Shown piece by piece: positions 6,132 to 43,589 of a stretch of 64,000 nucleotides of DNA. The DNA comes from Escherichia coli. Lineage in GTDB: Bacteria > Pseudomonadota > Gammaproteobacteria > Enterobacterales > Enterobacteriaceae. The number at the start of each line of letters is the position of its first letter. Within the stretch, counting starts at the first letter, position 1. The position numbers and the translations under genes are program-made. The stretch lies in NCBI RefSeq assembly GCF_013315695.1, contig NZ_CP054353.1; one strand, 5' to 3'. Under the pieces are notes generated by a model. That model worked only from the letters and a program-made list of their open reading frames with translations. It did no database searches and was not told the DNA's origin.

Positions 6132-7526
6132 ATGCCATTTAAAAAACTCTCCCGACGCACCTTCCTGACGGCAAGCTCGGCGCTTGCCTTCCTCCATACC
6201 CCTTTCGCTCGCGCGCTTCCCGCCCGACAAATCGTTAACATTAACGACTACAACCCACACGACTGGATCGCCTCATTTAAACAAGCCTTCAGCGAAGGGC
6301 AAACGGTCGTCGTGCCTGCCGGATTCGTTTGTGAAAATATCAACACCGGCATCTTCATTCCTCCTGGCAAAACGTTGCACATCCTTGGAAGCCTGCGCGG
6401 CAACGGCAGAGGGCGTTTTGTCTTACAAGACGGCAGCCAGGTGACAGGGGAGAAGGGCGGCCGTATGCATAACATCACCCTGGATGTGCGCGGTTCTGAC
6501 TGCATCATCAAAGGGTTGGCGATGAGCGGTTTTGGCCCGGTAACGCAGATTTATATCGGCGGCAAAAATAAACGCGTCATGCGCAACTTGACCATCGATA
6601 ACCTGACCGTCAGCCACGCTAATTACGCCATTTTACGCCAGGGATTTCATAACCAGATTATCGGTGCCAACATCACCAATTGTAAGTTCAGCGACTTACA
6701 GGGCGACGCCATTGAATGGAATGTAGCAATCAATGATCGCGACATTTTGATATCCGACCATGTCATCGAGCGCATCAACTGTACTAACGGCAAAATCAAC
6801 TGGGGTATTGGCATAGGACTGGCAGGAAGTACTTACGATAATAATTATCCGGAAAACCAGGCAGTGAAAAACTTTGTCGTTGCGAATATCACGGGATCAG
6901 ATTGTCGGCAACTGATCCATGTTGAAAATGGTAAACATTTTGTTATCCGTAATATCAAAGCTCGTAATATCACGCCGGATTTCAGTAAGAAAGCAGGTAT
7001 TGATAACGCCACAGTTGCTATTTATGGTTGTGACAACTTTGTGATTGATAATATTGAAATGATTAATAGTGCCGGGATGTTAATCGGCTATGGGGTAATT
7101 AAAGGCAAATATCTCTCGATACCGCAGAATTTCCGAGTGAATGATATTCAACTGGATAATACTCATCTTGCTTATAAATTGCGCGGCATCCAAATCTCCG
7201 CCGGGAATGCTGTCTCCTTTGTGGCGCTGACTAACATTGAGATGAAGCGTGCGTCGCTGGAGTTACACAACAAACCGCAACATCTTTTTATGCGAAATAT
7301 CAATGTGATGCAGGAATCCTCAGTTGGACCCGCATTGAGCATGAACTTTGACATGCGCAAAGACGTTCGCGGCGTGTTTATGGCGAAAAAAGAAACACTG
7401 CTGTCTCTTGCAAATGTTCATGCGGTGAATGAAAAAGGACAAATCTCCGTCGATATCGACAGGATTAATCACCATATTGTTAATGTGGAGAAGATTAACT
7501 TTAGATTGCCAGAACGGAGGGAGTAG
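6132..7526 (+). CDS. wcaM: colanic acid biosynthesis protein WcaM (signal-peptide protein, beta-helix-like)
   Basis: 464-aa ORF with N-terminal signal-like sequence; last gene of the wca cluster before galF. Confidence 0.85.
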
Positions 7527-7700
7527 ATTTGCGACCATTCCTGGAAAAATGGAGTCATACTTAGGAACAATGCTACTGCAATCCACAACGAAGCGGCGTA
7601 ACATCACAAGTAATTCAGTAATCAATTCAGGGTAATTGATGCTGGCGAAAAAAATCGAACAAGCTATAATTCAGCAACCATTTTACAGGTGGATGAAATA

Positions 7701-8594
7701 ATGACGAATTTAAAAGCAGTTATTCCTGTAGCGGGTCTTGGGATGCATATGTTGCCTGCCACTAAGGCGATTCCCAAAGAGATGCTACCGATCGTCGACA
7801 AGCCAATGATTCAGTACATCGTTGACGAGATTGTGGCTGCAGGGATCAAAGAAATCCTCCTGGTAACTCACGCTTCCAAGAACGCGGTCGAAAACCACTT
7901 CGACACCTCTTATGAATTAGAATCTCTCCTTGAACAGCGCGTGAAGCGTCAACTGCTGGCGGAAGTACAGTCCATTTGCCCGCCGGGCGTGACAATTATG
8001 AACGTGCGTCAGGGCGAACCTTTAGGTTTGGGCCACTCCATTTTATGTGCACGACCTGCCATTGGTGACAATCCATTTGTCGTGGTGCTGCCAGACGTTG
8101 TGATCGACGACGCCAGCGCCGACCCGCTGCGCTACAACCTTGCTGCCATGATTGCGCGCTTCAACGAAACGGGCCGCAGCCAGGTGCTGGCAAAACGTAT
8201 GCCGGGTGACCTCTCTGAATACTCTGTCATCCAGACCAAAGAGCCGCTGGACCGCGAAGGTAAAGTCAGCCGCATTGTTGAATTCATCGAAAAACCGGAT
8301 CAGCCGCAGACGCTGGACTCAGACATCATGGCCGTTGGTCGCTATGTGCTTTCTGCCGATATTTGGCCGGAACTGGAACGCACGCAGCCTGGTGCATGGG
8401 GGCGTATTCAGCTGACTGATGCCATTGCCGAACTGGCGAAAAAACAGTCCGTTGATGCCATGCTGATGACCGGCGACAGCTACGACTGCGGTAAAAAAAT
8501 GGGTTATATGCAAGCGTTCGTGAAGTATGGACTACGCAACCTCAAAGAAGGGGCGAAGTTCCGTAAAGGGATTGAGAAGCTGTTAAGCGAATAA
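7701..8594 (+). CDS. galF: UTP-glucose-1-phosphate uridylyltransferase paralogue (regulatory subunit)
   Basis: ORF 7689..8594; ATG at 7701 gives [30 protein letters not shown], matching remembered GalF. Confidence 0.92.
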
Positions 8595-8852
8595 TGAAAA
8601 TCTGACCGGATGTAACGGTTGATAAGAAAATTATAACGGCAGTGAAGATTAGCGGCGAAAGTAATTTGTCGCGAATTTTCCTGCCGTTGTTTTATATAAA
8701 CAATCAGAATAACAACGACTTAGCAATAGGATTTTAGTCAAAGTTTTCCAGGATTTTCCTTGTTTCCAGAGCGGATTGGTAAGACAATTAGCGCTTGAAT
8801 TTTTCGAGTTAAGCGCGAGTGGGTAACGCTCGTCACATCGTAGGAATGCATG

Positions 8853-8891
8853 CAGTGCTCTGGTAGCTGTAAAGCCAGGGGCGGTAGCGTG
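8853..8891 (+). promoter_or_regulatory. JUMPStart element with ops site (GGCGGTAGCGTG) for RfaH-dependent antitermination
   Basis: cagtgctctggtagctgtaaagccaggggcggtagcgtg about 75 bp upstream of rmlB; ops 12-mer at 8880..8891. Confidence 0.8.
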
Positions 8892-8966
8892 CATTAATAC
8901 CTCTATTAATCAAACTGAGAGCCGCTTATTTCACAGCATGCTCTGAAGTAATATGGAATAAATTAA

Positions 8967-10052
8967 GTGAAGATACTTGTTACTGGGGGCGCAGGATTTA
9001 TTGGTTCTGCTGTAGTTCGTCACATTATAAATAATACGCAGGATAGTGTTGTTAATGTCGATAAATTAACGTACGCCGGAAACCTGGAATCACTTGCTGA
9101 TGTTTCTGACTCTGAACGCTATGTTTTTGAACATGCGGATATTTGCGATGCTGCTGCAATGGCGCGGATTTTTGCTCAGCATCAGCCGGATGCAGTGATG
9201 CACCTGGCTGCTGAAAGCCATGTGGATCGTTCAATTACAGGCCCTGCGGCATTTATTGAAACCAATATTGTTGGTACTTATGTCCTTTTGGAAGCGGCTC
9301 GCAATTACTGGTCTGCTCTTGATGGCGACAAGAAAAATAGCTTCCGTTTTCATCATATTTCTACTGACGAAGTCTATGGTGATTTGCCTCATCCTGACGA
9401 AGTAAATAATAAAGAACAATTACCCCTCTTTACTGAGACGACAGCTTACGCGCCTAGTAGTCCTTATTCCGCATCAAAAGCATCCAGCGATCATTTAGTC
9501 CGCGCGTGGAAACGTACCTATGGTTTACCGACTATTGTGACTAACTGTTCGAATAACTACGGTCCTTATCACTTTCCGGAAAAATTGATTCCACTAGTAA
9601 TTCTTAATGCTCTGGAAGGTAAGGCATTACCTATTTATGGCAAAGGGGATCAAATTCGTGACTGGCTGTATGTTGAAGATCATGCGCGTGCGTTATATAC
9701 CGTAGTTACTGAAGGTCAAGCGGGTGAAACCTATAACATTGGCGGACACAACGAAAAGAAAAACATCGATGTTGTGCTGACTATTTGTGATTTGTTGGAC
9801 GAGATAGTCCCGAAAGAGAAATCTTATCGTGAGCAAATTACTTATGTTGCTGATCGCCCAGGGCATGATCGCCGTTATGCGATTGATGCTGAGAAGATTG
9901 GTCGCGAATTGGGATGGAAACCACAGGAAACGTTTGAGAGTGGGATTCGTAAAACGGTGGAATGGTATTTGGCTAATGCAAAATGGGTTGATAATGTGAA
10001 AAGTGGTGCCTATCAATCGTGGATTGAACAGAACTATGAGGGCCGCCAGTAA
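8967..10052 (+). CDS. rmlB: dTDP-glucose 4,6-dehydratase
   Basis: 361-aa ORF, GTG start, [14 protein letters not shown]ossmann N-terminus; first gene of the O-antigen cluster. Confidence 0.95.
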
Positions 10053-10951
10053 TGAATATCCTCCTTTTTGGCAAAACAGGGCAGGTAGGTTGGGAACTAC
10101 AGCGTGCTCTGGCACCTCTGGGTAATTTGATTGCTCTTGATGTTCACTCCACTGATTACTGTGGTGATTTTAGTAACCCTGAAGGTGTGGCTGAAACAGT
10201 CAAAAGAATTCGACCTGATGTTATTGTTAATGCTGCGGCTCACACCGCAGTAGATAAGGCTGAGTCAGAACCCGAATTTGCACAATTACTCAATGCGACT
10301 AGCGTTGAATCAATTGCAAAAGCGGCAAATGAAGTTGGGGCTTGGGTAATTCATTACTCAACTGACTACGTATTCCCTGGAAATGGCGACACGCCATGGC
10401 TGGAGATGGATGCAACCGCACCGCTAAATGTTTACGGTGAAACCAAGTTAGCTGGAGAAAAAGCATTACAAGAGCATTGTGCGAAGCACCTAATTTTCCG
10501 TACCAGCTGGGTCTATGCAGGTAAAGGAAATAATTTCGCCAAAACGATGTTGCGTCTGGCAAAAGAGCGTGAAGAACTAGCCGTTATTAATGATCAGTTT
10601 GGTGCGCCAACAGGTGCTGAACTGCTGGCTGATTGTACGGCACATGCCATTCGTGTCGCACTGAATAAACCGGATGTCGCAGGCTTGTACCATTTGGTAG
10701 CCAGTGGTACCACAACCTGGTACGATTATGCTGCGCTGGTTTTTGAAGAGGCGCGCAATGCAGGCATTCCTCTTGCACTCAACAAGCTCAACGCAGTACC
10801 AACAACTGCCTATCCTACACCAGCTCGTCGTCCACATAACTCTCGCCTTAATACAGAAAAATTTCAGCAGAATTTTGCGCTTGTATTGCCTGACTGGCAG
10901 GTTGGTGTGAAACGCATGCTCAACGAATTATTTACGACTACAGCAATTTAA
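10052..10951 (+). CDS. rmlD: dTDP-4-dehydrorhamnose reductase
   Basis: 299-aa ORF starting [20 protein letters not shown]; canonical rmlBDAC order. Confidence 0.95.
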   Translation: MNILLFGKTGQVGWELQRALAPLGNLIALDVHSTDYCGDFSNPEGVAETVKRIRPDVIVNAAAHTAVDKAESEPEFAQLLNATSVESIAKAANEVGAWVIHYSTDYVFPGNGDTPWLEMDATAPLNVYGETKLAGEKALQEHCAKHLIFRTSWVYAGKGNNFAKTMLRLAKEREELAVINDQFGAPTGAELLADCTAHAIRVALNKPDVAGLYHLVASGTTTWYDYAALVFEEARNAGIPLALNKLNAVPTTAYPTPARRPHNSRLNTEKFQQNFALVLPDWQVGVKRMLNELFTTTAI

Positions 10952-11008
10952 TAGTTTTTGCATCTTGTTCGTGATGGTGGAGCAAGATGAATTAAAAGGA
11001 ATGATGAA

Positions 11009-11887
11009 ATGAAAACGCGTAAAGGTATTATTTTAGCGGGTGGTTCTGGTACTCGTCTTTATCCTGTGACTATGGTCGTCAGTAAACAGCTATTACCTAT
11101 ATATGATAAACCGATGATCTATTATCCGCTTTCTACACTGATGTTAGCGGGTATTCGCGATATTCTGATTATTAGTACGCCACAGGATACTCCTCGTTTT
11201 CAACAACTGCTGGGTGACGGTAGCCAGTGGGGCCTGAATCTTCAGTACAAAGTGCAACCGAGTCCGGATGGTCTTGCGCAGGCATTTATTATCGGTGAAG
11301 AGTTTATTGGTGGTGATGATTGTGCTTTGGTACTTGGTGATAATATCTTCTACGGTCACGACCTGCCTAAGTTAATGGATGCCGCTGTTAACAAAGAAAG
11401 TGGTGCAACGGTATTTGCCTATCACGTTAATGATCCTGAACGCTATGGTGTCGTTGAGTTTGATAAAAACGGTACGGCGATCAGCCTGGAAGAAAAACCG
11501 CTACAACCAAAAAGTAATTATGCGGTAACCGGGCTTTATTTTTATGATAACGACGTTGTCGAAATGGCGAAAAATCTTAAGCCTTCTGCCCGCGGTGAAC
11601 TGGAAATTACCGATATTAACCGTATCTATATGGAACAAGGGCGTTTATCTGTTGCCATGATGGGGCGTGGTTATGCGTGGTTAGACACGGGGACACATCA
11701 GAGCCTGATTGAGGCAAGCAACTTTATTGCAACAATTGAAGAGCGTCAGGGGCTGAAAGTTTCCTGCCCGGAAGAAATTGCTTACCGTAAAGGGTTTGTT
11801 GATGCTGAGCAGGTGAAAGTATTAGCTGAACCTCTGAAAAAAAATGCTTATGGTCAGTATCTGCTGAAAATGATTAAAGGTTATTAA
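11009..11887 (+). CDS. rmlA: glucose-1-phosphate thymidylyltransferase
   Basis: 292-aa [22 protein letters not shown] motif. Confidence 0.95.
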
Positions 11888-11891
11888 TAAA

Positions 11892-12440
11892 ATGAACGTA
11901 ATTAAAACAGAAATTCCTGATGTACTGATTTTTGAACCGAAAGTTTTTGGTGATGAGCGTGGTTTCTTTTTTGAGAGCTTTAACCAGAAGGTTTTTGAGG
12001 AAGCTGTAGGCCGCAAAGTTGAATTTGTTCAGGATAACCATTCGAAGTCTAGTAAAGGTGTTTTACGCGGGCTGCATTATCAGTTGGAACCTTATGCACA
12101 AGGAAAATTGGTGCGTTGCGTTGTCGGTGAAGTTTTTGACGTAGCTGTTGATATTCGTAAATCGTCATCGACTTTTGGCAAATGGGTTGGGGTGAATTTA
12201 TCTGCTGAGAATAAGCGGCAATTGTGGATTCCTGAGGGATTTGCACATGGTTTTTTAGTGCTGAGTGAGACGGCGGAGTTTTTGTATAAGACGACAAATT
12301 ATTATCATCCTCAGAGTGATAGAGGAATAAAATGGGATGATCCAAGCATCAATATTTCATGGCCAGTCGATTCACAAGTGCTGCTATCAGCTAAAGATAA
12401 TAAGCATCCTCCATTAACAAAGATTGAAATGTATAGTTAA
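11892..12440 (+). CDS. rmlC: dTDP-4-dehydrorhamnose 3,5-epimerase
   Basis: 182-aa ORF, cupin-type RmlC sequence (FFESFNQ..RGLHYQ). Confidence 0.95.
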   Translation: MNVIKTEIPDVLIFEPKVFGDERGFFFESFNQKVFEEAVGRKVEFVQDNHSKSSKGVLRGLHYQLEPYAQGKLVRCVVGEVFDVAVDIRKSSSTFGKWVGVNLSAENKRQLWIPEGFAHGFLVLSETAEFLYKTTNYYHPQSDRGIKWDDPSINISWPVDSQVLLSAKDNKHPPLTKIEMYS

Positions 12441-13710
12441 GATCACGATAAATCTTGGAAGGGTTGCAAAATTGAATAAAATAGTGAGCAAAAGTGAAAT
12501 AAGGAACGTAATCCACAATGCTGGCTATATGATGATTACTCAGATAGCTTTATATGTTGCACCATTATTTATACTGAGTTATCTGTTAAAAACACTGGGG
12601 GTTGCACAGTTTGGTAATTATGCCTTAATACTATCAATCGTTGCATATTTACAGATTATAACGGATTATGGTTTTTCTTTTAGTGCAAGTCGTGCGATCT
12701 CACAGAATAGAGAGGACAAAGAATATATATCAAAAATTTATCTGTCAACTATGACTATCAAGTTGGCGATATGCGCTTTCTTATTCTTATTGCTCATGCT
12801 ATTTTTAAATCTTTTGCCTGTGCAAGCTGAATTAAAACAAGGAATATTATATGGATATCTTCTTGTAATAGGAAATACTTTCCAACCACAATGGTTTTTC
12901 CAAGGTATCGAAAAATTAAAAATCATAGCCCTTTCTAATGTTATATCAAGATGCGCCGCGTGTTTACTTGTATTTATCTATGTGAGGAATAGCGAGGATT
13001 TACAAAAAGCACTTTTAGTACAGTCACTTCCATTAGTAATTTCTGCGATTGGATTAAATATATTTATATTGAAATATATCAATATTATTTTTCCGGAAAA
13101 AAAATTATTTAAGGTAATTTTAAAAGAAGGTAAGGATTTTTTTCTTGCATCACTTTATTCTGTTATTCTCAATAATAGTGGCATTTTTCTATTAGGGATT
13201 TTTACTAATCCTGTTATTGTTGGTGTATATGCCGCCGCTGAAAAGATAGTCAAGGCCGTATTGTCGCTATTTACACCACTGACGCAAGCTATATATCCTT
13301 ATAATTGTCGTAAGTTTTCACTATCCGTATTTGACGGCATTGAGGCAGCAAAAAAAACTGGTATACCAATTATAATTTTAGCATTTATAGCTGCTGTTAT
13401 CGTTGCAATTACCTTACCTGTTGCAATCGACTATCTTAATTTTCCAAAAGAAACAATTTTTGTAGGTCAAATATTAAGTGCATGGATCTTTTTTGGTGTT
13501 CTTAATAATGTATTCGGCATTCAGATATTGAGTGCATCAGGAAGAAGTAAAATATATAGTAGGATGGTATTCGTATCAGCGCTTATAACATTACTTTTGA
13601 TTACTCTATTATTGCAGTTTTGTAACGCCACTGGAGTGGCATGTGCAATATTATTGGGTGAAATGTTCTTATCAATATTGTTACTTAAGCGATATAAAAA
13701 AATAATTTAA
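12424..13710 (+). CDS. wzx: O-antigen flippase (Wzx family); true start may lie at a downstream Met
   Basis: 428-aa very AT-rich polytopic membrane ORF after rmlC; Wzx-like hydropathy. Confidence 0.8.
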   Translation: MKCIVKITINLGRVAKLNKIVSKSEIRNVIHNAGYMMITQIALYVAPLFILSYLLKTLGVAQFGNYALILSIVAYLQIITDYGFSFSASRAISQNREDKEYISKIYLSTMTIKLAICAFLFLLLMLFLNLLPVQAELKQGILYGYLLVIGNTFQPQWFFQGIEKLKIIALSNVISRCAACLLVFIYVRNSEDLQKALLVQSLPLVISAIGLNIFILKYINIIFPEKKLFKVILKEGKDFFLASLYSVILNNSGIFLLGIFTNPVIVGVYAAAEKIVKAVLSLFTPLTQAIYPYNCRKFSLSVFDGIEAAKKTGIPIIILAFIAAVIVAITLPVAIDYLNFPKETIFVGQILSAWIFFGVLNNVFGIQILSASGRSKIYSRMVFVSALITLLLITLLLQFCNATGVACAILLGEMFLSILLLKRYKKII

Positions 13711-13719
13711 GGAATAGTT

Positions 13720-14847
13720 ATGAAGAAGTTATTATTAGTGTTCGGTACTAGGCCTGAAGCAATAAAGATGGCCTCTATCATTGAATTATTAAAAAAAGAT
13801 TGTAGATTCGAATATAAAATATGTGTGACAGGCCAACATAAAGAGATGCTTGATCAAGTTATGCAAGTATTTGATGTTAAACCTGATTATAATTTACGGA
13901 TTATGCAGCCTGGGCAAACATTAGTATCTGTAGCAACAAATATACTCTCACGGTTAAGTGAAGTTTTAATTATAGAAAAGCCAGATATTATACTTGTGCA
14001 TGGGGATACAACGACTACCCTTGCTGCTACTTTAGCTGGGTATTACCACCAAATAAAAGTTTGTCATGTGGAAGCAGGATTAAGAACAGGGGATATTTAC
14101 TCTCCTTGGCCTGAAGAGGGCAATCGTAAAGTTACAGGGGCATTAGCATGTATTCATTTCGCCCCAACAGAGAGATCAAAAGATAATCTCCTGAGGGAGG
14201 GTGTCAAAGTAAATAATATATTTGTAACGGGTAATACCGTCATCGACTCTTTATTTATTGCAAAAGATATCATAGATAATGACCCTAATATAAAGAACGC
14301 TTTACATAATAAATTTAATTTTCTTGATAAAAGCCGACGAGTAGTACTTATAACAGGTCATCGAAGAGAAAATTTCGGGAAAGGTTTTGAAGATATATGC
14401 TTTGCAATAAAGGAATTAGCTTTCATTTATCCTAATGTAGATTTTATTTATCCGGTGCATCTTAATCCCAATGTAATGGAACCAGTACATCGTATATTAG
14501 ATAATATATGTAATATTTACCTTATTGAGCCCTTGGATTATTTGCCTTTTGTTTATTTAATGAATGAGTCATATTTAATATTGACTGATTCAGGGGGGAT
14601 ACAAGAAGAAGCGCCTTCGTTAGGTAAACCGGTTTTGGTTATGCGTGATACTACTGAACGCCCTGAGGCGGTTGAGGCTGGTACTGTTGTATTAGTGGGG
14701 ACTTCTAAGATAAAAATAGTAAATAAAGTAACGGAGCTATTAAACAATGCTGATATCTACAATGCTATGTCTCTGTTACATAATCCATATGGCGATGGAA
14801 CAGCTGCTCAAAAAATTCTTAATGTGCTCGCCCAAGAGCTAATTTAA
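13720..14847 (+). CDS. mnaA: UDP-N-acetylglucosamine 2-epimerase (non-hydrolysing; UDP-ManNAc synthesis)
   Basis: 375-aa ORF, MKKLLLVFGTRPEAIKMA N-terminus and HVEAGLRT motif typical of WecB/MnaA epimerases. Confidence 0.85.
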   Translation: MKKLLLVFGTRPEAIKMASIIELLKKDCRFEYKICVTGQHKEMLDQVMQVFDVKPDYNLRIMQPGQTLVSVATNILSRLSEVLIIEKPDIILVHGDTTTTLAATLAGYYHQIKVCHVEAGLRTGDIYSPWPEEGNRKVTGALACIHFAPTERSKDNLLREGVKVNNIFVTGNTVIDSLFIAKDIIDNDPNIKNALHNKFNFLDKSRRVVLITGHRRENFGKGFEDICFAIKELAFIYPNVDFIYPVHLNPNVMEPVHRILDNICNIYLIEPLDYLPFVYLMNESYLILTDSGGIQEEAPSLGKPVLVMRDTTERPEAVEAGTVVLVGTSKIKIVNKVTELLNNADIYNAMSLLHNPYGDGTAAQKILNVLAQELI

Positions 14848-14861
14848 TTTAAGCTAAAAAT

Positions 14862-15926
14862 ATGTTATTAATTATTGCTGATTATCCAAACGAAATGAAT
14901 ATGCGCGAGGGAGCTATGCAACGAATAGATGCGATAGACTCTCTCATTCGAGATCGCAAGCGAGTGTATTTGAATATTTCATTCAAAAAGCATCTAGTTC
15001 GCTCAAATAGTTCCTTTAATAATGTTATAGTTGAAAATCTAAATGCAATTATTCACAGAAACATCATAAAACAGTACATGCAAAAATCAACAACTATATA
15101 TGTTCATTCTGTTTATAATTTATTAAAGGTTATAACGCTCATTGATCTAAAAAAAACAATTCTTGATATACATGGTGTTGTACCGGAAGAACTTTTGGCA
15201 GATAATAAAAAATTACTTAGTAAAGTATATAACATGGTGGAAAAAAAAGGTGTCCTTGGATGCAAAAAATTAATACACGTCAGTACAGAAATGCAAAAAC
15301 ACTATGAAGCAAAATATGGAGTAAACTTGGCTGAAAGGTCAATAGTGCTCCCGATTTTTGAATATAAAAATATAACCCAATCGCAAAACAAATGGACAGA
15401 AAATAAAATACGAAGTATCTATCTTGGAGGATTACAAACATGGCAAAATATTGATAAAATGATTCAAATTTGTGATGACACAGTGATAAACAATGAAGCA
15501 GGTAAGTATGAATTCAACTTTTTCATCCCACAGAGTAACTTGGAAGGGTTTATAGATAAATATTCGTTAAAATTACATAATATCAATGCTAATGCATCTA
15601 CGCTATCACGTGATGAAGTAATTCCCTTTCTAAAAGAATGTCATATTGGTTTTGTATTGCGCGATGATATAATAGTAAACAGAGTTGCGTGCCCTACAAA
15701 ATTGGTTGAATATTTAGAGTGTGGTGTCGTTCCAGTTGTGCTCTCCCCACTTATAGGTGATTTTTATTCGATGGGATATCAATACATTACTACAGAGGAA
15801 ATGGCTAACAGAAGTATAAGTTTGTTGGATCTTGAAAAAATGGCTGCACATAATTTACAAATTTTGACTTCTTATCAGAAGAGAACCTACAAGGCACAGA
15901 AAGAACTTATTGCTCAACTGTGCTGA
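14862..15926 (+). CDS. putative O-antigen glycosyltransferase (GT-B-like)
   Basis: 354-aa AT-rich ORF inside the O-antigen cluster; fold assignment by composition and position only. Confidence 0.55.
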   Translation: MLLIIADYPNEMNMREGAMQRIDAIDSLIRDRKRVYLNISFKKHLVRSNSSFNNVIVENLNAIIHRNIIKQYMQKSTTIYVHSVYNLLKVITLIDLKKTILDIHGVVPEELLADNKKLLSKVYNMVEKKGVLGCKKLIHVSTEMQKHYEAKYGVNLAERSIVLPIFEYKNITQSQNKWTENKIRSIYLGGLQTWQNIDKMIQICDDTVINNEAGKYEFNFFIPQSNLEGFIDKYSLKLHNINANASTLSRDEVIPFLKECHIGFVLRDDIIVNRVACPTKLVEYLECGVVPVVLSPLIGDFYSMGYQYITTEEMANRSISLLDLEKMAAHNLQILTSYQKRTYKAQKELIAQLC

Positions 15927-15977
15927 ATTTTTTACATATATAAAATTATGTAAGCATATCGCGGGTCAGGTAATTGT

Positions 15978-16982
15978 ATGCGTATCAAATATAAAGATAA
16001 CGGTTATATATTATGTTTTCTATTATGTTTCATTTTGAGCTACTTAGTTTTACTCAAATCTGACTACTTTCCTGCTGATTTTCTGCCATATACAGAAATA
16101 TACGATGGGACATACGGAGAAATCAATAATATTGAGCCTGCCTTTTTATATTTAACACGGTTGTTTCATTATTTAAATTTCCCCTATATATTTTTTGCAA
16201 TGTTAGTTTGTGCCTTATGTTTAAGTTGGAAAATAAAATATGCAAGAAAAATAATTAAAGATAGTTATATATATTTATTCTTGTATGTATATGTATCATT
16301 TTATGTGTTTTTGCATGAAATGACTCAATTGCGCATAGCAATTGCAGTCACTATGTGCTATGTGTCGGTTTATTATTACTTTTATAAAAATTGTATTAAA
16401 CATGCACTGCCATGGATGGTGTTGGCTATTTTGTTTCATTACAGCGCCTTGCTTTTATTTATGTCATTATTTATATACAGTTATAGGAGGTTATTAATAG
16501 TAATTATAGGGTTTGTAATATGTATGAGCTTTTTAAACGTGTATGCAGATACAATTGCACTATATTTGCCAAATGAAAAAATAGTAAATTATTTATATAG
16601 TATTTCATCATCATTAGACAATAGAAATGATTTGGCAATATTCAACCTGAATAATATAATATTTTTATCAATATTTATTTTGATCTTTTATCTTAGCCGA
16701 TATATAAAATTAAATGATAATGAGGCGAAGTTTATTAAGTATGTGCAATGTTCAGGAATATTAGCCTTTTGTATTTTCTTTCTGGCTAGTGGAGTCCCGG
16801 TCATTGCTTATCGAACTGCAGAGTTGCTGCGAATATTTTATCCGATGGCTTTAGTATTAATCCTTTCGCATATAAAAAATAATAATATGCGTTATTTTAT
16901 TGCAGTCATTATAGTTATCCTTTCAGGCTTAATGTTGTTTATAACACTAAGGGCTGTATCAATAGTTGGTCAAGGATTATAA
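15978..16982 (+). CDS. wzy: O-antigen polymerase (Wzy family)
   Basis: 334-aa highly hydrophobic, Tyr/Phe/Leu/Ile-rich multi-TM ORF with low codon adaptation, typical of Wzy. Confidence 0.7.
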   Translation: MRIKYKDNGYILCFLLCFILSYLVLLKSDYFPADFLPYTEIYDGTYGEINNIEPAFLYLTRLFHYLNFPYIFFAMLVCALCLSWKIKYARKIIKDSYIYLFLYVYVSFYVFLHEMTQLRIAIAVTMCYVSVYYYFYKNCIKHALPWMVLAILFHYSALLLFMSLFIYSYRRLLIVIIGFVICMSFLNVYADTIALYLPNEKIVNYLYSISSSLDNRNDLAIFNLNNIIFLSIFILIFYLSRYIKLNDNEAKFIKYVQCSGILAFCIFFLASGVPVIAYRTAELLRIFYPMALVLILSHIKNNNMRYFIAVIIVILSGLMLFITLRAVSIVGQGL

Positions 16983-17943
16983 AATGAATGTTGCTATTTT
17001 GTTGTCTACGTATAATGGCGAAAAATATTTAGAGGAACAACTGGATTCATTGCTGCTTCAAAGTTATCAGGATTTTGTAGTGTATATCCGTGATGACGGA
17101 TCATCTGATAGAACTGTAAATATAATAAACCAATACGTAATGAAAGATAACAGATTTATTAACGTGGGTAATTCAGAAAATCTTGGTTGTGCTGCTTCGT
17201 TTATTAATTTATTAAGAAATGCTTCAGCCGATATTTATATGTTTTGTGACCAAGATGATTATTGGCTTCCGAATAAATTACAGCGTGCTGTGGATTATTT
17301 TTCGGCTATTGATCCTTTACAACCTACCTTGTATCATTGCGATCTAAGCGTTGTTGATGAAAAACTTAATATTATACAAAATTCATTTTTGCAGCATCAG
17401 AAAATGTCAGCGTATGATTCAATGAGAAAAAATAATCTTTTCATACAAAATTTTGTTGTTGGTTGTTCATGTGCTGTTAATGCTTCACTTGCGGAATTTG
17501 TTCTTTCGCGAATTGGAGAGCAGCATGTAAAAATGATAGCTATGCATGACTGGTGGTTAGCCGTGACTGCAAAACTTTTTGGTCGAATCCATTTTGATAA
17601 TACTCAAACGATTCTTTATCGACAACATCAGGGCAATGTATTAGGTGCAAAATCATCAGGTATGATGCGTTTTATTCGATTAGGATTAAATGGGCAAGGG
17701 ATTTCGCGAGTAGTATCTTTTAGAAAAAAAGTTTGTGCGCAAAATAAGCTTCTTTTAGATGTCTATGATAAAGATTTAAATCTTGAGCAAAAAAAATCTA
17801 TCAGGCTTGTAATTGAGGGCCTTAAAGAGAACTCTTCAATTGCTGACCTTTTAAAATGTTTCTATCATGGTAGCTATATGCAAGGTTTTAAACGTAATCT
17901 TGCCTTAATATATTCAGTTCTTTACACAAAAAAAAGAAGATAG
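16966..17943 (+). CDS. glycosyltransferase family 2 (probable rhamnosyltransferase)
   Basis: 325-aa ORF, N-terminal VAILLSTYNGEKYLEEQLDSLLLQ..DDGSSD GT-A motif. Confidence 0.8.
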   Translation: MVKDYKMNVAILLSTYNGEKYLEEQLDSLLLQSYQDFVVYIRDDGSSDRTVNIINQYVMKDNRFINVGNSENLGCAASFINLLRNASADIYMFCDQDDYWLPNKLQRAVDYFSAIDPLQPTLYHCDLSVVDEKLNIIQNSFLQHQKMSAYDSMRKNNLFIQNFVVGCSCAVNASLAEFVLSRIGEQHVKMIAMHDWWLAVTAKLFGRIHFDNTQTILYRQHQGNVLGAKSSGMMRFIRLGLNGQGISRVVSFRKKVCAQNKLLLDVYDKDLNLEQKKSIRLVIEGLKENSSIADLLKCFYHGSYMQGFKRNLALIYSVLYTKKRR

Positions 17944-17952
17944 TGTATCCTT

Positions 17953-19017
17953 ATGAAAAAAATTGCTATTATCGGTACTGTTGGCATACCAGCATCATAT
18001 GGCGGATTTGAAACATTAGTTGAAAATTTAACAAGATACAATTCCTCGGGAGTTGAATATAATGTTTTTTGTTCATCGTTTCACTACAAATCCCACCAAA
18101 AAAAACATAATGGGGCCCGTTTAATTTATATTCCGCTTAAAGCCAATGGATGGCAGAGCATTGCGTATGACATAATTTCGTTAGCATATTCTATTTTTTT
18201 GAAGCCTGATGTGATTCTGATTTTAGGGGTTTCTGGTTGTTCATTTTTGCCTTTCTTCAAACTCTTAACACGCGCTAAGTTTATTACTAATATTGATGGC
18301 CTGGAATGGCGAAGAGATAAATGGAATTCAAAAGTGAAACGTTTCTTAAAATTTTCAGAAAAAATCGCAGTTCAATATTCGGATGTCGTTATTACGGATA
18401 ATGAGGCAATTTCTGAGTACGTTTTTAACGAGTATAATAAAGATAGCCGAGTTATTGCCTATGGAGGGGATCATGCATGGTTAAATACTGAGGATGTATT
18501 TACAACAAGAAATTATAAAAGCGATTACTACCTTTCTGTATGTCGTATCGAACCCGAAAACAATGTAGAATTAATTTTAAAAACATTTTCAAAGCTAAAA
18601 TATAAAATAAAATTTATTGGAAATTGGAATGGCAGCGAGTTTGGAAAGAAACTTAGGCTGCATTATTCTAACTATCCAAATATTGAAATGATTGATCCGA
18701 TTTATGATCTTCAACAATTATTTCACTTACGAAATAATTGCATAGGATATATACATGGTCATTCGGCTGGAGGAACAAACCCTTCTTTAGTCGAGGCAAT
18801 GCATTTTAGTAAACCTATATTTGCATATGATTGTAAGTTTAATAGGTACACTACTGAAAATGAAGCATGTTATTTTTCTAATGAATCTGACCTCGCAGAG
18901 AAAATCATAATGCATTGTGAGCTATCATTAGGTGTCTCTGGCACGAAAATGAAAGAAATTGCTAACCAGAAATACACTTGGAGACGAATAGCAGAAATGT
19001 ATGAGGATTGCTATTAA
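17953..19017 (+). CDS. glycosyltransferase (DUF1972/GT1-type)
   Basis: 354-aa ORF, N-terminal KKIAIIGTVGIPASYGGFET motif; last gene before gnd. Confidence 0.75.
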   Translation: MKKIAIIGTVGIPASYGGFETLVENLTRYNSSGVEYNVFCSSFHYKSHQKKHNGARLIYIPLKANGWQSIAYDIISLAYSIFLKPDVILILGVSGCSFLPFFKLLTRAKFITNIDGLEWRRDKWNSKVKRFLKFSEKIAVQYSDVVITDNEAISEYVFNEYNKDSRVIAYGGDHAWLNTEDVFTTRNYKSDYYLSVCRIEPENNVELILKTFSKLKYKIKFIGNWNGSEFGKKLRLHYSNYPNIEMIDPIYDLQQLFHLRNNCIGYIHGHSAGGTNPSLVEAMHFSKPIFAYDCKFNRYTTENEACYFSNESDLAEKIIMHCELSLGVSGTKMKEIANQKYTWRRIAEMYEDCY

Positions 19018-19121
19018 CTCTGTTAAACTTCAAATCTTTTACAATATATGGCATGACTATAAGCGCATTAATTGTTTTTCAAGCCGCTCTCGCGGTGACC
19101 ACCCCCTGACAGGAGTAAACA

Positions 19122-20528
19122 ATGTCAAAGCAACAGATCGGCGTCGTCGGTATGGCAGTGATGGGGCGCAACCTTGCGCTCAACATCGAAAGCCGTGGTT
19201 ATACCGTCTCTATTTTCAACCGTTCCCGTGAAAAGACGGAAGAAGTGATTGCCGAAAATCCAGGCAAGAAACTGGTTCCTTACTATACGGTGAAAGAGTT
19301 TGTTGAATCTCTGGAAACGCCTCGTCGCATCCTGTTAATGGTGAAAGCAGGTGCAGGCACGGATGCTGCTATTGATTCCCTCAAACCATATCTCGATAAA
19401 GGTGACATCATCATTGATGGTGGCAATACCTTCTTCCAGGACACCATTCGTCGTAACCGTGAACTTTCTGCCGAAGGCTTTAACTTCATTGGTACCGGTG
19501 TCTCCGGTGGTGAAGAAGGCGCGCTGAAAGGTCCTTCTATTATGCCTGGTGGGCAGAAAGATGCCTATGAACTGGTTGCACCAATCCTGACCAAAATCGC
19601 CGCAGTAGCTGAAGACGGGGAGCCATGCGTTACCTATATTGGTGCCGATGGCGCAGGCCATTATGTGAAGATGGTTCACAACGGTATTGAATACGGCGAT
19701 ATGCAGCTGATTGCTGAAGCCTATTCTCTGCTTAAAGGTGGCTTGAACCTTTCCAACGAAGAACTGGCGCAGACCTTTACCGAGTGGAATAACGGTGAAC
19801 TGAGCAGCTACCTGATTGACATCACTAAAGACATCTTCACTAAAAAAGATGAAGACGGTAACTACCTGGTTGATGTGATTCTGGATGAAGCGGCTAACAA
19901 AGGTACCGGTAAATGGACCAGCCAGAGCGCGCTGGATCTCGGTGAACCGCTGTCGCTGATTACCGAGTCTGTGTTTGCACGTTATATCTCTTCTCTGAAA
20001 GATCAGCGTGTTGCCGCATCTAAAGTTCTCTCTGGCCCGCAAGCGCAGCCAGCAGGCGATAAAGATGAGTTCATCGAAAAAGTTCGCCGTGCACTGTATC
20101 TGGGCAAAATCGTTTCTTACGCTCAGGGCTTCTCTCAACTGCGTGCGGCGTCTGAAGAGTACAACTGGGATCTGGACTACGGCGAAATCGCGAAGATTTT
20201 CCGTGCTGGCTGCATCATCCGTGCGCAGTTCCTGCAGAAAATCACCGATGCTTATGCCGAAAATCCGCAGAGCGCTAACCTGCTGCTGGCTCCGTACTTC
20301 AAGCAAATCGCCGATGACTACCAGCAGGCGCTGCGCGATGTCGTCGCTTACGCGGTACAGAACGGTATCCCGGTTCCGACCTTCGCCGCTGCGGTTGCCT
20401 ATTATGACAGCTACCGCGCCGCTGTTCTGCCTGCGAACCTGATCCAGGCACAGCGTGACTATTTCGGTGCGCATACTTATAAGCGCATTGATAAAGAAGG
20501 TGTGTTCCATACCGAATGGCTGGATTAA
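19122..20528 (+). CDS. gnd: 6-phosphogluconate dehydrogenase, decarboxylating
   Basis: 468-aa [25 protein letters not shown]-terminus; conserved location next to the O-antigen cluster. Confidence 0.97.
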
Positions 20529-20555
20529 TCTGATTTAATCAACAATAAAATTGAG

Positions 20556-20585
20556 GCCCGGCGTATATTATGCCGGGTTTTTTTT
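20556..20585 (+). terminator. rho-independent terminator of gnd
   Basis: gcccggc..gccggg hairpin followed by a T8 run 28 bp after the gnd stop. Confidence 0.8.
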
Positions 20586-20766
20586 ACCAATTATCTTATA
20601 GACTAAATTTCACTGCTTAATATTAACTTAATAAATATCAGCTATTCTTATAAAGAAATTCTGAATTGTTTTTCGTTGCGTTGACCATCTTACAACGTAG
20701 CGTTAAAACTTTTAACTCTTATCAGGATGCTAAAAACATCATGATTCACAGTTAAGTTAATTCTGA

Positions 20767-21942
<1,176 letters not shown>

Positions 21943-22087
21943 CATCCTGTTATCAGGGCTATTTACGCCCTGATTGTCTTTTGTTACTTGCGTAACAATT
22001 CATTATTTTTATCAATTATCCTATAGCATTCATGAGGATTATCGCTAAACTATGCGGACTTGGAAATTTCCGTCAGTTAGGGTAATG

Positions 22088-23068
22088 ATGAGAGTAGAAA
22101 ATAATAATGTTTCTGGGCAAAACCATGACCCGGAACAGATTGATTTGATTGATTTACTAGTGCAGTTGTGGCGTGGCAAGATGACAATCATCATTTCCGT
22201 CATTGTGGCTATTGCCCTGGCTATTGGATATTTGGCAGTAGCGAAGGAGAAATGGACGTCAACAGCAATTATCACTCAGCCCGATGTGGGGCAAATTGCT
22301 GGCTATAACAATGCCATGAATGTTATCTATGGTCAGGCTGCACCGAAAGTATCGGATTTGCAGGAGACGTTAATTGGTCGCTTCAGTTCTGCCTTCTCTG
22401 CATTAGCAGAAACGCTGGATAATCAGGAAGAACCAGAAAAACTTACCATCGAACCTTCTGTTAAGAACCAGCAATTACCATTGACTGTTTCTTATGTTGG
22501 GCAAACTGCAGAGGGCGCACAAATGAAGTTGGCCCAATACATTCAGCAAGTTGACGATAAAGTGAATCAAGAGTTAGAAAAGGATCTCAAGGACAACATT
22601 GCTCTGGGACGGAAAAACTTGCAGGACTCTTTAAGAACGCAGGAAGTGGTTGCGCAGGAGCAGAAAGATCTGCGTATCCGTCAGATTCAGGAAGCGTTGC
22701 AGTATGCGAATCAGGCGCAGGTGACAAAACCGCAGATTCAACAGACTGGCGAAGATATCACACAAGATACGTTGTTCCTTTTGGGGAGCGAAGCGCTGGA
22801 GTCGATGATTAAGCATGAGGCGACCCGTCCGTTGGTGTTCTCACCAAACTACTATCAGACTCGTCAAAACCTGCTTGATATCGAAAGCTTAAAGGTTGAT
22901 GATCTTGATATTCATGCTTACCGCTATGTAATGAAACCGACGTTACCTATTCGTCGTGATAGCCCGAAAAAGGCAATTACCTTGATTCTGGCGGTGCTGC
23001 TGGGTGGCATGGTTGGCGCGGGGATTGTGCTGGGGCGTAATGCTCTACGCAATTACAACGCGAAGTAA
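22088..23068 (+). CDS. wzzB: O-antigen chain-length determinant (Wzz)
   Basis: ORF 22052..23068; internal Met gives MRVENNNVSGQNHDPEQIDLIDLL as in remembered WzzB; two TM segments. Confidence 0.9.
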   Translation: MRVENNNVSGQNHDPEQIDLIDLLVQLWRGKMTIIISVIVAIALAIGYLAVAKEKWTSTAIITQPDVGQIAGYNNAMNVIYGQAAPKVSDLQETLIGRFSSAFSALAETLDNQEEPEKLTIEPSVKNQQLPLTVSYVGQTAEGAQMKLAQYIQQVDDKVNQELEKDLKDNIALGRKNLQDSLRTQEVVAQEQKDLRIRQIQEALQYANQAQVTKPQIQQTGEDITQDTLFLLGSEALESMIKHEATRPLVFSPNYYQTRQNLLDIESLKVDDLDIHAYRYVMKPTLPIRRDSPKKAITLILAVLLGGMVGAGIVLGRNALRNYNAK

Positions 23069-30675: not shown

Positions 30676-30927
30676 ATGCGTACAATTAGCTACAGCGAAG
30701 CGCGTCAGAATTTGTCGGCAACAATGATGAAAGCCGTTGAAGATCATGCCCCGATCCTCATTACTCGTCAGAATGGAGAGGCTTGTGTTCTGATGTCACT
30801 CGAAGAATACAACTCGCTGGAAGAGACGGCTTATCTACTGCGTTCCCCCGCTAACGCCCGGAGATTGATGGACTCAATCGATAGCCTGAAATCAGGCAAA
30901 GGAACGGAAAAGGACATTATTGAGTGA
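30676..30927 (+). CDS. yefM: YefM antitoxin (type II TA)
   Basis: ORF 30649..30927; ATG at 30676 gives [31 protein letters not shown] (83 aa). Confidence 0.92.
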
Positions 30928-31178
30928 AACTAATCTGGTCTGAGGAATCATGGGATGATTATCTGTACTGGCAGGAAACAGATAAGCGAATTGTTAAAAA
31001 GATCAATGAACTTATCAAAGATACCCGCAGAACACCATTTGAAGGTAAGGGGAAACCAGAACCCCTGAAACATAATTTGTCAGGTTTCTGGTCCCGACGC
31101 ATTACAGAGGATCACCGTCTGGTATACGCGGTTACTGATGATTCACTGCTCATTGCAGCATGTCGTTATCATTATTGA
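30924..31178 (+). CDS. yoeB: YoeB toxin (RelE-family mRNA interferase)
   Basis: 84-aa ORF overlapping yefM stop by 4 nt; [22 protein letters not shown]. Confidence 0.92.
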
Positions 31179-39205: not shown

Positions 39206-39724
39206 ATGAGTGTGCCGCAAACAAAAGCTGAACTGCTTTTAGCTATTGATAAAAATTTTAGTAAATTAATTAGTTACCTCAACACAATCCCACCAGAAAT
39301 TACTTCAGATAAATCAATGGACGGACACGCCAAAGGAACGGAGATGAGTGTTCGTGATCTCGTTTCGTATCTGCTTGGATGGAATGCTCTTGTTGTAAAG
39401 TGGATCGCTTCTGATGCTAAAGGTCTGCCTGTCGATTTTCCGGAAACTGGCTATAAATGGAATCAGCTTGGCCTTCTTGCTCAAAAATTTTACTCAGATT
39501 ACAGTGAGTTAAGTTATGAGTTGTTAGTAGCTGAACTTCAGACTGTAAAAAATGAGATTGTGAACCTTATTAATGATCGTACCGATGATATTTTGTATGG
39601 AAGACCATGGTACACAAAATGGACGATGGGGAGAATGATCTCATTTAACACATCTTCGCCTTACGCCAACGCTAATGGAAGATTAAGAAAGTGGGCAAAA
39701 AATAATAATATCAGTTTAAAGTAA
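39206..39724 (+). CDS. ClbS/DfsB-like (DUF1706) protein, putative colibactin/DNA-damage self-protection protein; passenger gene of the ISL3 element
   Basis: 172-aa ORF with good RBS (gagaggga); shares with remembered ClbS the motifs HAKGT, VSYLxGW, LGxLAQKFY, YGxPWYxKWTxGRMIxFNTxSPYxNAxGRL. Confidence 0.6.
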   Translation: MSVPQTKAELLLAIDKNFSKLISYLNTIPPEITSDKSMDGHAKGTEMSVRDLVSYLLGWNALVVKWIASDAKGLPVDFPETGYKWNQLGLLAQKFYSDYSELSYELLVAELQTVKNEIVNLINDRTDDILYGRPWYTKWTMGRMISFNTSSPYANANGRLRKWAKNNNISLK

Positions 39725-39742
39725 GCTTCAGAATGAAATTAT

Positions 39743-40963: not shown

Positions 40964-40991
40964 GTCTTCCCACCATGATCGGGGAAGACCC

Positions 40992-41005
40992 ATATAAAAA
41001 CAGTA
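40992..41005 (+). promoter_or_regulatory. right half of the split LexA box (duplicated spacer ATATAAAA + ACAGTA) upstream of sbmC
   Basis: Sits 15 bp upstream of the sbmC ATG; see 39093..39106. Confidence 0.7.
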
Positions 41006-41019
41006 TTAATGGGGGCGTC

Positions 41020-43292: not shown

Positions 43293-43350
43293 CTCATTGA
43301 TTCTTATCTGTGTATCACCGTCATCATTCTCATCTGAGAACCAATCGAAA

Positions 43351-43575: not shown

Positions 43576-43589
43576 TGAGATTCCTGCTT

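What the first reader, a model, noticed from the sequence alone, without database searches (positions are those of the whole stretch)
12424..19017. O-antigen cluster with rmlBDAC plus mnaA; gene content resembles serogroup O1
Between the JUMPStart/ops element and gnd the cluster is rmlB-rmlD-rmlA-rmlC-wzx-(UDP-GlcNAc 2-epimerase)-GT-wzy-GT2-GT1, which implies a repeat unit containing L-rhamnose and ManNAc. This is the gene order I recall for E. coli O1 and differs from K-12 O16. The wzx-to-GT1 section is strongly AT-rich, typical of horizontally acquired serotype-specific genes. Only three glycosyltransferases are present for a unit that would need more linkages.
Basis: partly seen in the sequence, partly recalled or inferred. 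Interest (0 to 1): 0.35.

Follow-up and report, generated by a model that had tools for sequence, protein, structure and literature searches.

The report
E. coli O1A O-antigen gene cluster
This is the ordinary, already catalogued gene cluster that makes the O1A surface sugar antigen of Escherichia coli, essentially identical to the one in the species type strain and in O1:K1:H7 bloodstream and poultry isolates.

Summary
The observation and the interpretation both hold. Window 8967-19017 carries rmlB-rmlD-rmlA-rmlC-wzx-mnaA-wekM-wzy-wekN-wekO. It lies between galF with a JUMPStart/ops element (8853-8891) and gnd. The serotype-specific part (12424-19017) is 99.9-100% identical to 91 complete E. 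coli genomes. These include the type strain ATCC 11775 (= U5/41, the O1 reference; 3 differences in 6594 bases) and strains named O1:K1:H7. RefSeq names the flippase and polymerase "O1 family". This is subtype O1A, because the published non-A O1 clusters are only 41-55% identical to the reference. GC is 28-36% against 43-55% in the flanks.

The remark about three glycosyltransferases is correct: the published O1A unit needs four transfers after WecA. It is also already noted in the literature, which proposes that one enzyme makes both Rha-Rha bonds.

New here, by inference only, is an assignment of the three enzymes:
- WekO (DUF1972, GacB/WchF-like) makes Rha-β1,4-GlcNAc.
- WekN (GT2) makes both Rha-α1,3-Rha bonds.
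- WekM (GT-B fold, no Pfam hit) adds the β1,2-ManNAc.

wzx-mnaA-wekM recurs in four of the six other loci examined, from four genera.

Verdict: already known; low interest.

The parts
7701..8594 (+). galF, the upstream boundary gene of the O-antigen locus
   Evidence: RefSeq annotation of the collinear ATCC 11775 locus, transferred by an offset of 6423. The window and that locus differ at 6 positions over 7689-23068.
8853..8891 (+). JUMPStart-type 39-base element containing ops (GGCGGTAGCGTG at 8880-8891), the RfaH-dependent antitermination signal
   Evidence: Sequence read directly. The ops sequence is unique in the window and absent from 100 shuffles. The role in RfaH antitermination comes from established knowledge and was not tested here.
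8967..10052 (+). rmlB (rfbB), dTDP-glucose 4,6-dehydratase
10052..10951 (+). rmlD (rfbD), dTDP-4-dehydrorhamnose reductase
11009..11887 (+). rmlA (rfbA), glucose-1-phosphate thymidylyltransferase
11892..12440 (+). rmlC (rfbC), dTDP-4-dehydrorhamnose 3,5-epimerase
12484..13710 (+). wzx, O1 O-unit flippase. The start shown is the RefSeq GTG at 12484; the longest ORF starts at TTG 12424.
   Evidence: PF01943 4e-41. RefSeq names it 'O1 family O-antigen flippase'. Start codons.
13720..14847 (+). mnaA (wecB paralogue), non-hydrolysing UDP-GlcNAc 2-epimerase that makes UDP-ManNAc
   Evidence: PF02350 4e-120; TIGR00236 503.7 bits against a cut-off of 210
14862..15926 (+). wekM, a GT-B fold glycosyltransferase. 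Inferred to be the β1,2-ManNAc transferase acting on the terminal rhamnose.
   Evidence: No Pfam or NCBIfam hit of its own. 508 homologues. 21 of 48 aligned homologues hit Glyco_transf_4. AlphaFold model pLDDT 94.9. GT-B matches in the PDB. The gene lies directly downstream of an Epimerase_2 gene in 6 of 6 homologue loci.
15978..16982 (+). wzy, O1A O-antigen polymerase
   Evidence: EpsG 1e-30. RefSeq names it 'O1 family O-antigen polymerase'. The protein is identical to that of ATCC 11775, because the one nucleotide difference is synonymous.
16984..17943 (+). wekN, a family 2 (GT-A, inverting) glycosyltransferase. Inferred to be the α1,3-rhamnosyltransferase that makes both Rha-Rha bonds.
   Evidence: PF00535 2e-24. 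Homologue loci carry rml genes and a DUF1972 transferase in 3 of 3 cases. That one enzyme makes two Rha-Rha bonds in O1 is proposed in PMC7685785.
17953..19017 (+). wekO, a DUF1972 + GT1-type glycosyltransferase. Inferred to be the retaining β1,4-rhamnosyltransferase acting on GlcNAc-PP-undecaprenol.
   Evidence: DUF1972 5e-34. NCBIfam Cps2T β1-4 rhamnosyltransferase 5e-68, 229.6 bits, below the equivalog cut-off of 500. GGTNPSLVE motif at residue 273, against GGTNP(G/S)LLE in GacB/WchF (PMC6802508).
19122..20528 (+). gnd, the downstream boundary gene
22088..23068 (+). wzzB, the O-antigen chain-length regulator. It lies outside the cluster but belongs to the pathway.
   Evidence: RefSeq annotation transferred; ORF

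Best explanation
This is an intact Wzx/Wzy-dependent O-antigen gene cluster of E. coli serogroup O1, subtype O1A, between galF and gnd.

Inferred pathway:
1. Transcription reads through from upstream of the JUMPStart/ops element.
2. RmlBDAC make dTDP-L-rhamnose and MnaA makes UDP-ManNAc.
3. WecA, encoded elsewhere, provides GlcNAc-PP-undecaprenol.
4. WekO adds the first rhamnose in a β1,4 bond. This retains the donor's configuration, as in GacB/WchF.
5. WekN adds the next two rhamnoses in α1,3 bonds, so one enzyme is used twice.
6. WekM caps the last rhamnose with β1,2-ManNAc.
7. Wzx flips the pentasaccharide. Published work shows this flippase requires the ManNAc.
8. Wzy polymerises the units, WzzB sets chain length, and WaaL ligates the polymer to the core.

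Shown here: the identity of the cluster, its intactness, its gene content and the protein families. Inferred only: which transferase makes which bond.
For: Identity:
- 100% coverage at 99.3-100% identity in 91 complete genomes, annotated 'O1 family' wzx and wzy. They include ATCC 11775 = U5/41 and named O1:K1:H7 strains.
- 3 differences in 6594 bases against ATCC 11775.
- Non-A O1 clusters are only 41-55% identical to the U5-41 reference (PMC5293828).
- Strains carrying this operon were shown by NMR to make O1a (PMC11237799).

Structure: ManNAc-β1,2-Rha-α1,3-Rha-α1,3-Rha-β1,4-GlcNAc (PMC6436433).

WekO: DUF1972 domain, Cps2T-like at 5e-68, and the GGTNPSLVE motif. GacB is a retaining β1,4-rhamnosyltransferase acting on GlcNAc-PP-Und (PMC6802508).

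WekN: family 2. Its homologues sit with rml genes and a DUF1972 transferase in Photobacterium, Aeromonas and Pseudomonas loci that show no Epimerase_2 gene in the 19 kb examined. The review lists O1 among clusters in which one transferase probably makes two Rha-Rha bonds.

WekM: GT-B fold. Its homologues lie immediately after a UDP-GlcNAc 2-epimerase gene in 6 of 6 loci from six genera. Three of those loci show no rml genes in the stretch examined.
Against: - No biochemical assignment of WekM, WekN or WekO was found in the searchable literature. Only two papers mention the names.
- WekM's nearest solved structures are all retaining GT-B enzymes, whereas a β-ManNAc bond from UDP-α-ManNAc needs inversion.
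- WekO scores below the NCBIfam equivalog cut-off.
- The neighbourhood samples are small: 6 and 3 loci.
- Carrying the cluster does not prove expression. About 15% of genotypic O1 blood isolates did not react with O1a antiserum (PMC11237799).
- wecA and waaL are outside the window.
Confidence: 0.93

Rival explanations
1. The cluster belongs to a different O1 subtype (O1B, O1C or another non-A form) or to another serogroup that also uses rhamnose and ManNAc, and only resembles O1A in gene order.
For: Non-A O1 clusters have the same gene order (PMC5293828). A Salmonella locus and a Rahnella locus have a similar layout.
Against: Those relatives are far more distant. Non-A O1 clusters are 41-55% identical at nucleotide level. 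The Salmonella and Rahnella Wzx are 46-49% and WekM 45-49% identical at protein level. The window differs from the O1A reference strain at 3 of 6594 bases.
Confidence: 0.01
2. The transferase roles are swapped: WekN (family 2, inverting) adds the β-ManNAc, and WekM adds the two α1,3-rhamnoses.
For: Both reactions invert the donor configuration, so stereochemistry alone does not separate them. WekN's sequence matches are generic family 2 hits with no donor information.
Against: WekM homologues follow the epimerase gene in all six loci, including Aeromonas, Comamonas and Pedobacter loci with no rml genes in view. WekN homologues sit with rml genes and a DUF1972 transferase in three loci that show no epimerase gene.
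Confidence: 0.12
3. The cluster is genetically O1A, but the strain does not display O1A antigen. The strain could be rough or the antigen modified, because of defects or modifying genes outside the window.
For: About 15% of in silico O1 blood isolates did not react with O1a antiserum (PMC11237799). IS-disrupted O1A clusters exist in other genomes.
Against: All ten genes in the window are full length. Their proteins are identical or nearly identical to those of the reference, and no IS element lies inside the cluster. wzzB is intact.
Confidence: 0.1

Closest known systems
E. coli O1A O-antigen gene cluster of reference strain G1632/U5-41 (GenBank GU299791; ATCC 11775 chromosome NZ_CP033092.2, 1947746-1957796)
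   Same: Same genes, same order and same flanks. There are 3 substitutions in the 6594-base specific part and 6 across the 15.4 kb from galF to wzzB.
   Different: One amino-acid difference, Ile203 here against Val in ATCC 11775 WekM. This appears to be the known I202V polymorphism, allowing for an offset of one in the numbering.
Non-A O1 clusters (strains CB11070, CB13533, CB14293, A47; Delannoy et al. 2017)
   Same: The same layout rmlBDAC-wzx-mnaA-GT-... and a shared ManNAc-Rha epitope (PMC5293828).
   Different: Only 41-55% nucleotide identity to the O1A reference. The backbone contains galactose in place of one rhamnose (PMC11237799).
Streptococcal rhamnose-polysaccharide initiation by GacB and S. 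pneumoniae WchF/Cps2T
   Same: WekO shares the DUF1972 + GT1 architecture and the GGTNPS-L-V/L-E motif. The bond it is expected to make, L-Rha-β1,4-GlcNAc on undecaprenyl diphosphate, is the one GacB makes.
   Different: WekO is a distant relative (229.6 bits against an equivalog cut-off of 500). It works in a Gram-negative Wzx/Wzy O-unit pathway, and its activity is untested.
E. coli K-12 O16 cluster
   Same: Same chromosomal site and the same rmlBDAC genes at the 5' end.
   Different: Downstream of rmlC, K-12 has rfbX-glf-wbbH-wbbI-wbbJ-wbbK-wbbL::IS5. It has no mnaA and no wek genes.

Membership tests
E. coli O1A O-antigen gene cluster | Located between galF and gnd, downstream of a JUMPStart/ops element | tested here: met
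   galF 7701-8594, ops 8880-8891, gnd 19122-20528
E. coli O1A O-antigen gene cluster | Gene content and order rmlB-rmlD-rmlA-rmlC-wzx-mnaA-wekM-wzy-wekN-wekO, about 10.05 kb | tested here: met
   The span 8967-19017 is 10,051 bases, against 10.05 kb in PMC11237799.
E. coli O1A O-antigen gene cluster | wzx and wzy sequences match the O1 reference strain U5-41 rather than any other serogroup | tested here: met
   The Wzy protein is identical and the specific part differs at 3 of 6594 bases from ATCC 11775 = U5/41. RefSeq uses 'O1 family' names.
E. coli O1A O-antigen gene cluster | The strain agglutinates with O1 antiserum, or makes the O1A repeat unit chemically | not testable with these tools
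   This needs the strain. Published NMR on strains with this operon gives O1a (PMC11237799).
Wzx/Wzy-dependent O-antigen pathway | Flippase, polymerase and chain-length regulator genes are present | tested here: met
   PF01943 (wzx) and EpsG (wzy); wzzB annotated
Wzx/Wzy-dependent O-antigen pathway | Initiation by WecA on undecaprenyl phosphate and ligation by WaaL | not tested
   wecA and waaL lie outside the 64 kb window
dTDP-L-rhamnose pathway (RmlBDAC) | All four enzymes are present and full length | tested here: met
   Four strong Pfam matches. The RefSeq proteins have the same lengths.
Non-hydrolysing UDP-GlcNAc 2-epimerase (WecB/MnaA) | Score above the curated equivalog cut-off | tested here: met
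   TIGR00236 503.7 bits against a cut-off of 210.15
GacB/WchF-type β1,4-rhamnosyltransferase (WekO) | N-terminal DUF1972 domain plus C-terminal GT1-type domain | tested here: met
   PF09314 5e-34 over residues 1-173; PF00534 over residues 186-319
GacB/WchF-type β1,4-rhamnosyltransferase (WekO) | Conserved GGTNP(G/S)LLE motif | tested here: met
   GGTNPSLVE at residue 273, one conservative change (motif from PMC6802508)
GacB/WchF-type β1,4-rhamnosyltransferase (WekO) | Reaches the NCBIfam Cps2T equivalog cut-off | tested here: not met
   229.6 bits against 500. WekO is a relative, not an equivalog.
GacB/WchF-type β1,4-rhamnosyltransferase (WekO) | Transfers L-Rha from dTDP-Rha with retention to make a β1,4 bond | not testable with these tools
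   Needs an enzyme assay
CAZy GT4-type retaining GT-B transferases (WekM) | GT-B two-Rossmann-domain fold | tested here: met
   Model pLDDT 94.9. Foldseek matches to GlgM, glycogen synthase, BshA, OtsA, MshA and WaaG at E 5e-12 to 1e-9.
CAZy GT4-type retaining GT-B transferases (WekM) | Pfam Glyco_transf_4 or Glycos_transf_1 above the gathering score | tested here: not met
   16.3 bits against 28.5. 21 of 48 homologues match Glyco_transf_4 at E up to 0.001.
CAZy GT4-type retaining GT-B transferases (WekM) | E-x7-E motif in the C-terminal domain | tested here: not met
   The family alignment has invariant E283, but a nearly invariant Val at the position 8 residues upstream (V275). The motif definition is from my own knowledge of GT4.
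Glycosyltransferase family 2 (WekN) | Pfam Glycos_transf_2 domain above the gathering score | tested here: met
   86.7 bits against 23.3

The most novel reading that the evidence does not exclude
WekM stands for an uncharacterised family of GT-B transferases that add β-ManNAc by inversion, on a scaffold whose nearest solved relatives all retain configuration.

The published O1A unit has one retaining bond and three inverting bonds. The cluster has two GT4-like GT-B proteins and one family 2 protein. So if WekO is the GacB-like retaining enzyme, WekM must invert whichever bond it makes.

The gene travels with mnaA in all six homologue loci examined, and with a related wzx in four of them (Salmonella, Rahnella, Acinetobacter, Pedobacter). 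The three genes may therefore form a portable cassette that supplies a ManNAc cap together with the flippase that requires it.
Probability: 0.45. Interest if true: 0.3.

Novelty: already known. Interest (0 to 1): 0.1.

Why it matters
O1A is one of the commonest O antigens of invasive E. coli (ST95 O1:K1:H7) and a component of glycoconjugate vaccine candidates. Recognising it types the strain and marks it as a likely extraintestinal pathogen lineage. Nothing about the cluster itself is new.

The small residue of interest is that the three O1A glycosyltransferases have no experimental assignment in the literature I could search. The genome-context evidence gathered here gives a testable assignment. 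It also points to a possibly unclassified family of β-ManNAc transferases.

Tried and rejected
- **Direct domain searches on WekM.** Pfam at E up to 10, NCBIfam, and PDB sequence searches with the single protein and with a 48-sequence profile all gave nothing usable. Only the homologue set and the predicted fold resolved it.
- **Foldseek against afdb50.** This library was not available.
- **Donor specificity of WekN.** PDB and NCBIfam gave only generic family 2 hits. The names sources give to its homologues are mostly generic, with a few 'rhamnosyltransferase' labels of unknown basis.
- **Missing self-hit.** The listing did not return the identical full-length WekN. The tool scores only the 8000 candidates that share the most words, so I treat this as an artefact of the cap.
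- **One neighbourhood look-up** found no record.
- **Promoter and terminator scan of 8500-20700.** Counts were no better than shuffles (47 against 42.4; 8 against 8.2), so it says nothing about operon structure.
- **Literature searches.** No open paper assigns functions to WekM, WekN or WekO. The A. baumannii K-locus paper gave no linkage assignment for the WekM homologue. The original structure paper, PMC207532, is not held.
- **Another serogroup or a non-A O1 subtype.** I considered and rejected this.


Full report
**What is in the sequence.** ORF listing and domain searches confirm a co-directional run of ten genes on the + strand:

| Gene | Coordinates | Evidence |
|---|---|---|
| rmlB | 8967-10052 | GDP_Man_Dehyd/Epimerase |
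| rmlD | 10052-10951 | RmlD_sub_bind |
| rmlA | 11009-11887 | NTP_transferase |
| rmlC | 11892-12440 | dTDP_sugar_isom |
| wzx | 12484-13710 | Polysacc_synt |
| mnaA | 13720-14847 | Epimerase_2; TIGR00236 503.7 bits, cut-off 210 |
| wekM | 14862-15926 | 354 aa, no domain hit |
| wzy | 15978-16982 | EpsG-type |
| wekN | 16984-17943 | family 2 transferase |
| wekO | 17953-19017 | DUF1972 + GT1-type transferase |

The longest wzx ORF starts at 12424 (TTG).

Upstream lie galF and a 39-base JUMPStart-type sequence at 8853-8891. Its ops core, GGCGGTAGCGTG, is unique in the window and absent from 100 shuffles. Downstream come gnd, ugd, wzzB and the his operon. GC falls to 0.28-0.36 from wzx to wekO, against 0.39-0.46 in the rml genes and 0.46-0.55 in gnd.

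**Which serogroup.**
- A megablast of 12424-19017 against 5,426 complete E. coli genomes finds 101 genomes. In 91 of them the match is full length at 99.3-100% identity. Their genes are annotated 'O1 family O-antigen flippase' and 'O1 family O-antigen polymerase'.
- They include strains named O1:K1:H7 and O1:H42, and ATCC 11775 = DSM 30083. The title of its genome paper identifies that strain as U5/41 (PMC4334874). Delannoy et al. give U5-41 as the O1 reference strain (GenBank GU299791).
- Against ATCC 11775 the window has 6 substitutions from galF to wzzB. Three fall in the specific part: two are synonymous and one is Ile/Val at WekM residue 203.
- The non-A O1 clusters share the gene order but are only 41-55% identical to the reference. 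Strains carrying this operon ('rmlB through wekO', 10.05 kb, with genes named wekM, wekN and wekO) were shown by NMR to make O1a. Here rmlB to wekO spans 10,051 bases. The cluster is O1A.
- K-12 O16 differs from rmlC onwards.

**The third gene.**
- WekM has no Pfam or NCBIfam match. Its best Pfam score is 16.3 bits for Glyco_transf_4, against a cut-off of 28.5. It has no PDB sequence match, even with a profile. RefSeq labels it either 'glycosyl transferase family 2' or 'glycosyltransferase family protein'.
- It has 508 homologues. Of 48 aligned, 21 match Glyco_transf_4 and 9 match Glycos_transf_1.
- An AlphaFold model (pLDDT 94.9) is a two-domain GT-B fold. It matches GlgM, glycogen synthase, BshA, OtsA, MshA and WaaG at 10-13% identity.
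- It is therefore a GT-B transferase, and the 'family 2' label looks wrong.

**Three transferases, four bonds.** The published O1A unit is ManNAc-β1,2-Rha-α1,3-Rha-α1,3-Rha-β1,4-GlcNAc-PP-Und (PMC6436433). It is not new. The E. coli O-antigen review lists O1 among clusters in which one transferase probably forms the bonds between rhamnoses (PMC7685785).

**Proposed assignment (inference).**
- **WekO.** It carries DUF1972, scores 5e-68 against the Cps2T β1-4 rhamnosyltransferase model (below the equivalog cut-off), and has GGTNPSLVE where GacB/WchF have GGTNP(G/S)LLE. GacB makes exactly Rha-β1,4-GlcNAc-PP-Und, with retention of configuration.
- **WekN.** It is family 2, which inverts, as an α-L-rhamnose bond made from dTDP-β-L-rhamnose requires. 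Its homologues in Photobacterium, Aeromonas hydrophila and Pseudomonas sit with rml genes and a DUF1972 transferase. No epimerase gene appears in those loci.
- **WekM.** Its homologues lie directly downstream of a UDP-GlcNAc 2-epimerase gene in 6 of 6 loci: Salmonella, Rahnella, Aeromonas, Comamonas, Acinetobacter and Pedobacter. Three of these show no rml genes.
- This supports WekO for the first rhamnose, WekN for both α1,3 rhamnoses and WekM for the ManNAc cap. I put this assignment at about 0.7. The swapped assignment is the main rival.

**A small oddity.** The O1A unit has one retaining bond and three inverting ones, while the cluster has two GT4-like GT-B proteins and one family 2 protein. 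If WekO is the retaining enzyme, WekM must invert. Yet its nearest solved relatives all retain, and its family lacks the first Glu of the E-x7-E motif: V275 is nearly invariant and E283 is invariant. WekM may belong to an unclassified family of inverting GT-B enzymes.

**A recurring trio.** Protein comparisons show that wzx, mnaA and wekM recur together in four of the six other loci: Salmonella, Rahnella, Acinetobacter and Pedobacter. Identities are Wzx 30-49%, MnaA 55-67% and WekM 35-49%. The wzy, wekN and wekO genes do not travel with them. This fits the published finding that the O1A Wzx will not flip the unit without ManNAc, and that the Salmonella O42 Wzx flips the O1A unit.

**Context.** The window is collinear with the UK blood isolate AF3 at 99.98-100% identity, but it lacks AF3's IS1 insertion in wcaM.

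**Verdict.** Both the observation and the interpretation are supported. The feature is the known O1A cluster, intact and ordinary.

Noticed in passing
window 14862-15926: RefSeq names this protein 'glycosyl transferase family 2' (WP_000924431.1) in many genomes. Its predicted fold and its homologues are GT-B/GT4-like, so the product name looks like a misnomer.
   Followed up: yes
window 12424-12484: The wzx start is ambiguous. The longest ORF starts at TTG 12424 and overlaps rmlC by 17 bases, while RefSeq uses GTG 12484. Residue 181 is Leu only when counted from the long ORF, which matches the 'L181I' numbering of the published O1a comparison.
   Followed up: partly
L002 12932-15103 (isolate AF3), corresponding to window 6132-7526: The nearest genome, AF3, has an IS1A insertion that splits the colanic acid gene wcaM. 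The window has an intact 464-aa wcaM.
   Followed up: yes
L009 10351-12528 (isolate CRECJHTL34, NZ_CM192843.1): This is an O1A-type cluster in which an IS1 element sits where rmlC, wzx, mnaA, wekM, wzy and the 5' part of wekN should be. Only the 3' part of wekN and wekO remain, so this blood isolate is presumably rough.
   Followed up: partly
one search hits H19 (NZ_CM127582.1) and H5 (NZ_CP146670.1): H19 carries an ISApl1 (IS30-like) transposase inside its O1A cluster, so the match is split into two pieces. H5 matches over 6593 rather than 6594 bases, and its wzx loses the 'O1 family' name, which suggests a one-base indel.
   Followed up: no
window 39206-41493: An ISL3-family ISEc53 transposase gene (39743-40963) sits between a ClbS/DfsB-family four-helix-bundle gene (39206-39724) and sbmC. 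Annotation was transferred from AF3.
   Followed up: partly
window about 43350-47700: There is a remnant of a CP4-44-like element: cbtA/yeeU toxin-antitoxin, yeeW, yeeT, yeeS and an antirestriction gene. An IS3-family transposase and truncated transposase and cobalamin gene fragments lie beside it.
   Followed up: no
window 52680-52755, 55089-55164, 56913-56988: The window has three tRNA-Asn (GTT) genes with only nac, cbl and yeeO between them. No large island is inserted at any of them within the window.
   Followed up: partly
window 30676-31178: The yefM-yoeB toxin-antitoxin pair lies just beyond the his leader. Annotation was transferred from AF3.
   Followed up: no
L003 9068-9884 (Salmonella enterica GCA_051416955.1): In the related Salmonella cluster there is a gap of about 800 bases with no called gene between the wekM homologue and wzy.
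   Followed up: no
L011-L013: The WekN-like family 2 transferases in the Photobacterium, Aeromonas and Pseudomonas loci are accompanied by a pyruvyl transferase gene (PS_pyruv_trans) as well as by rml genes and a DUF1972 transferase. This suggests a recurrent pyruvylated rhamnan-type locus.
   Followed up: no
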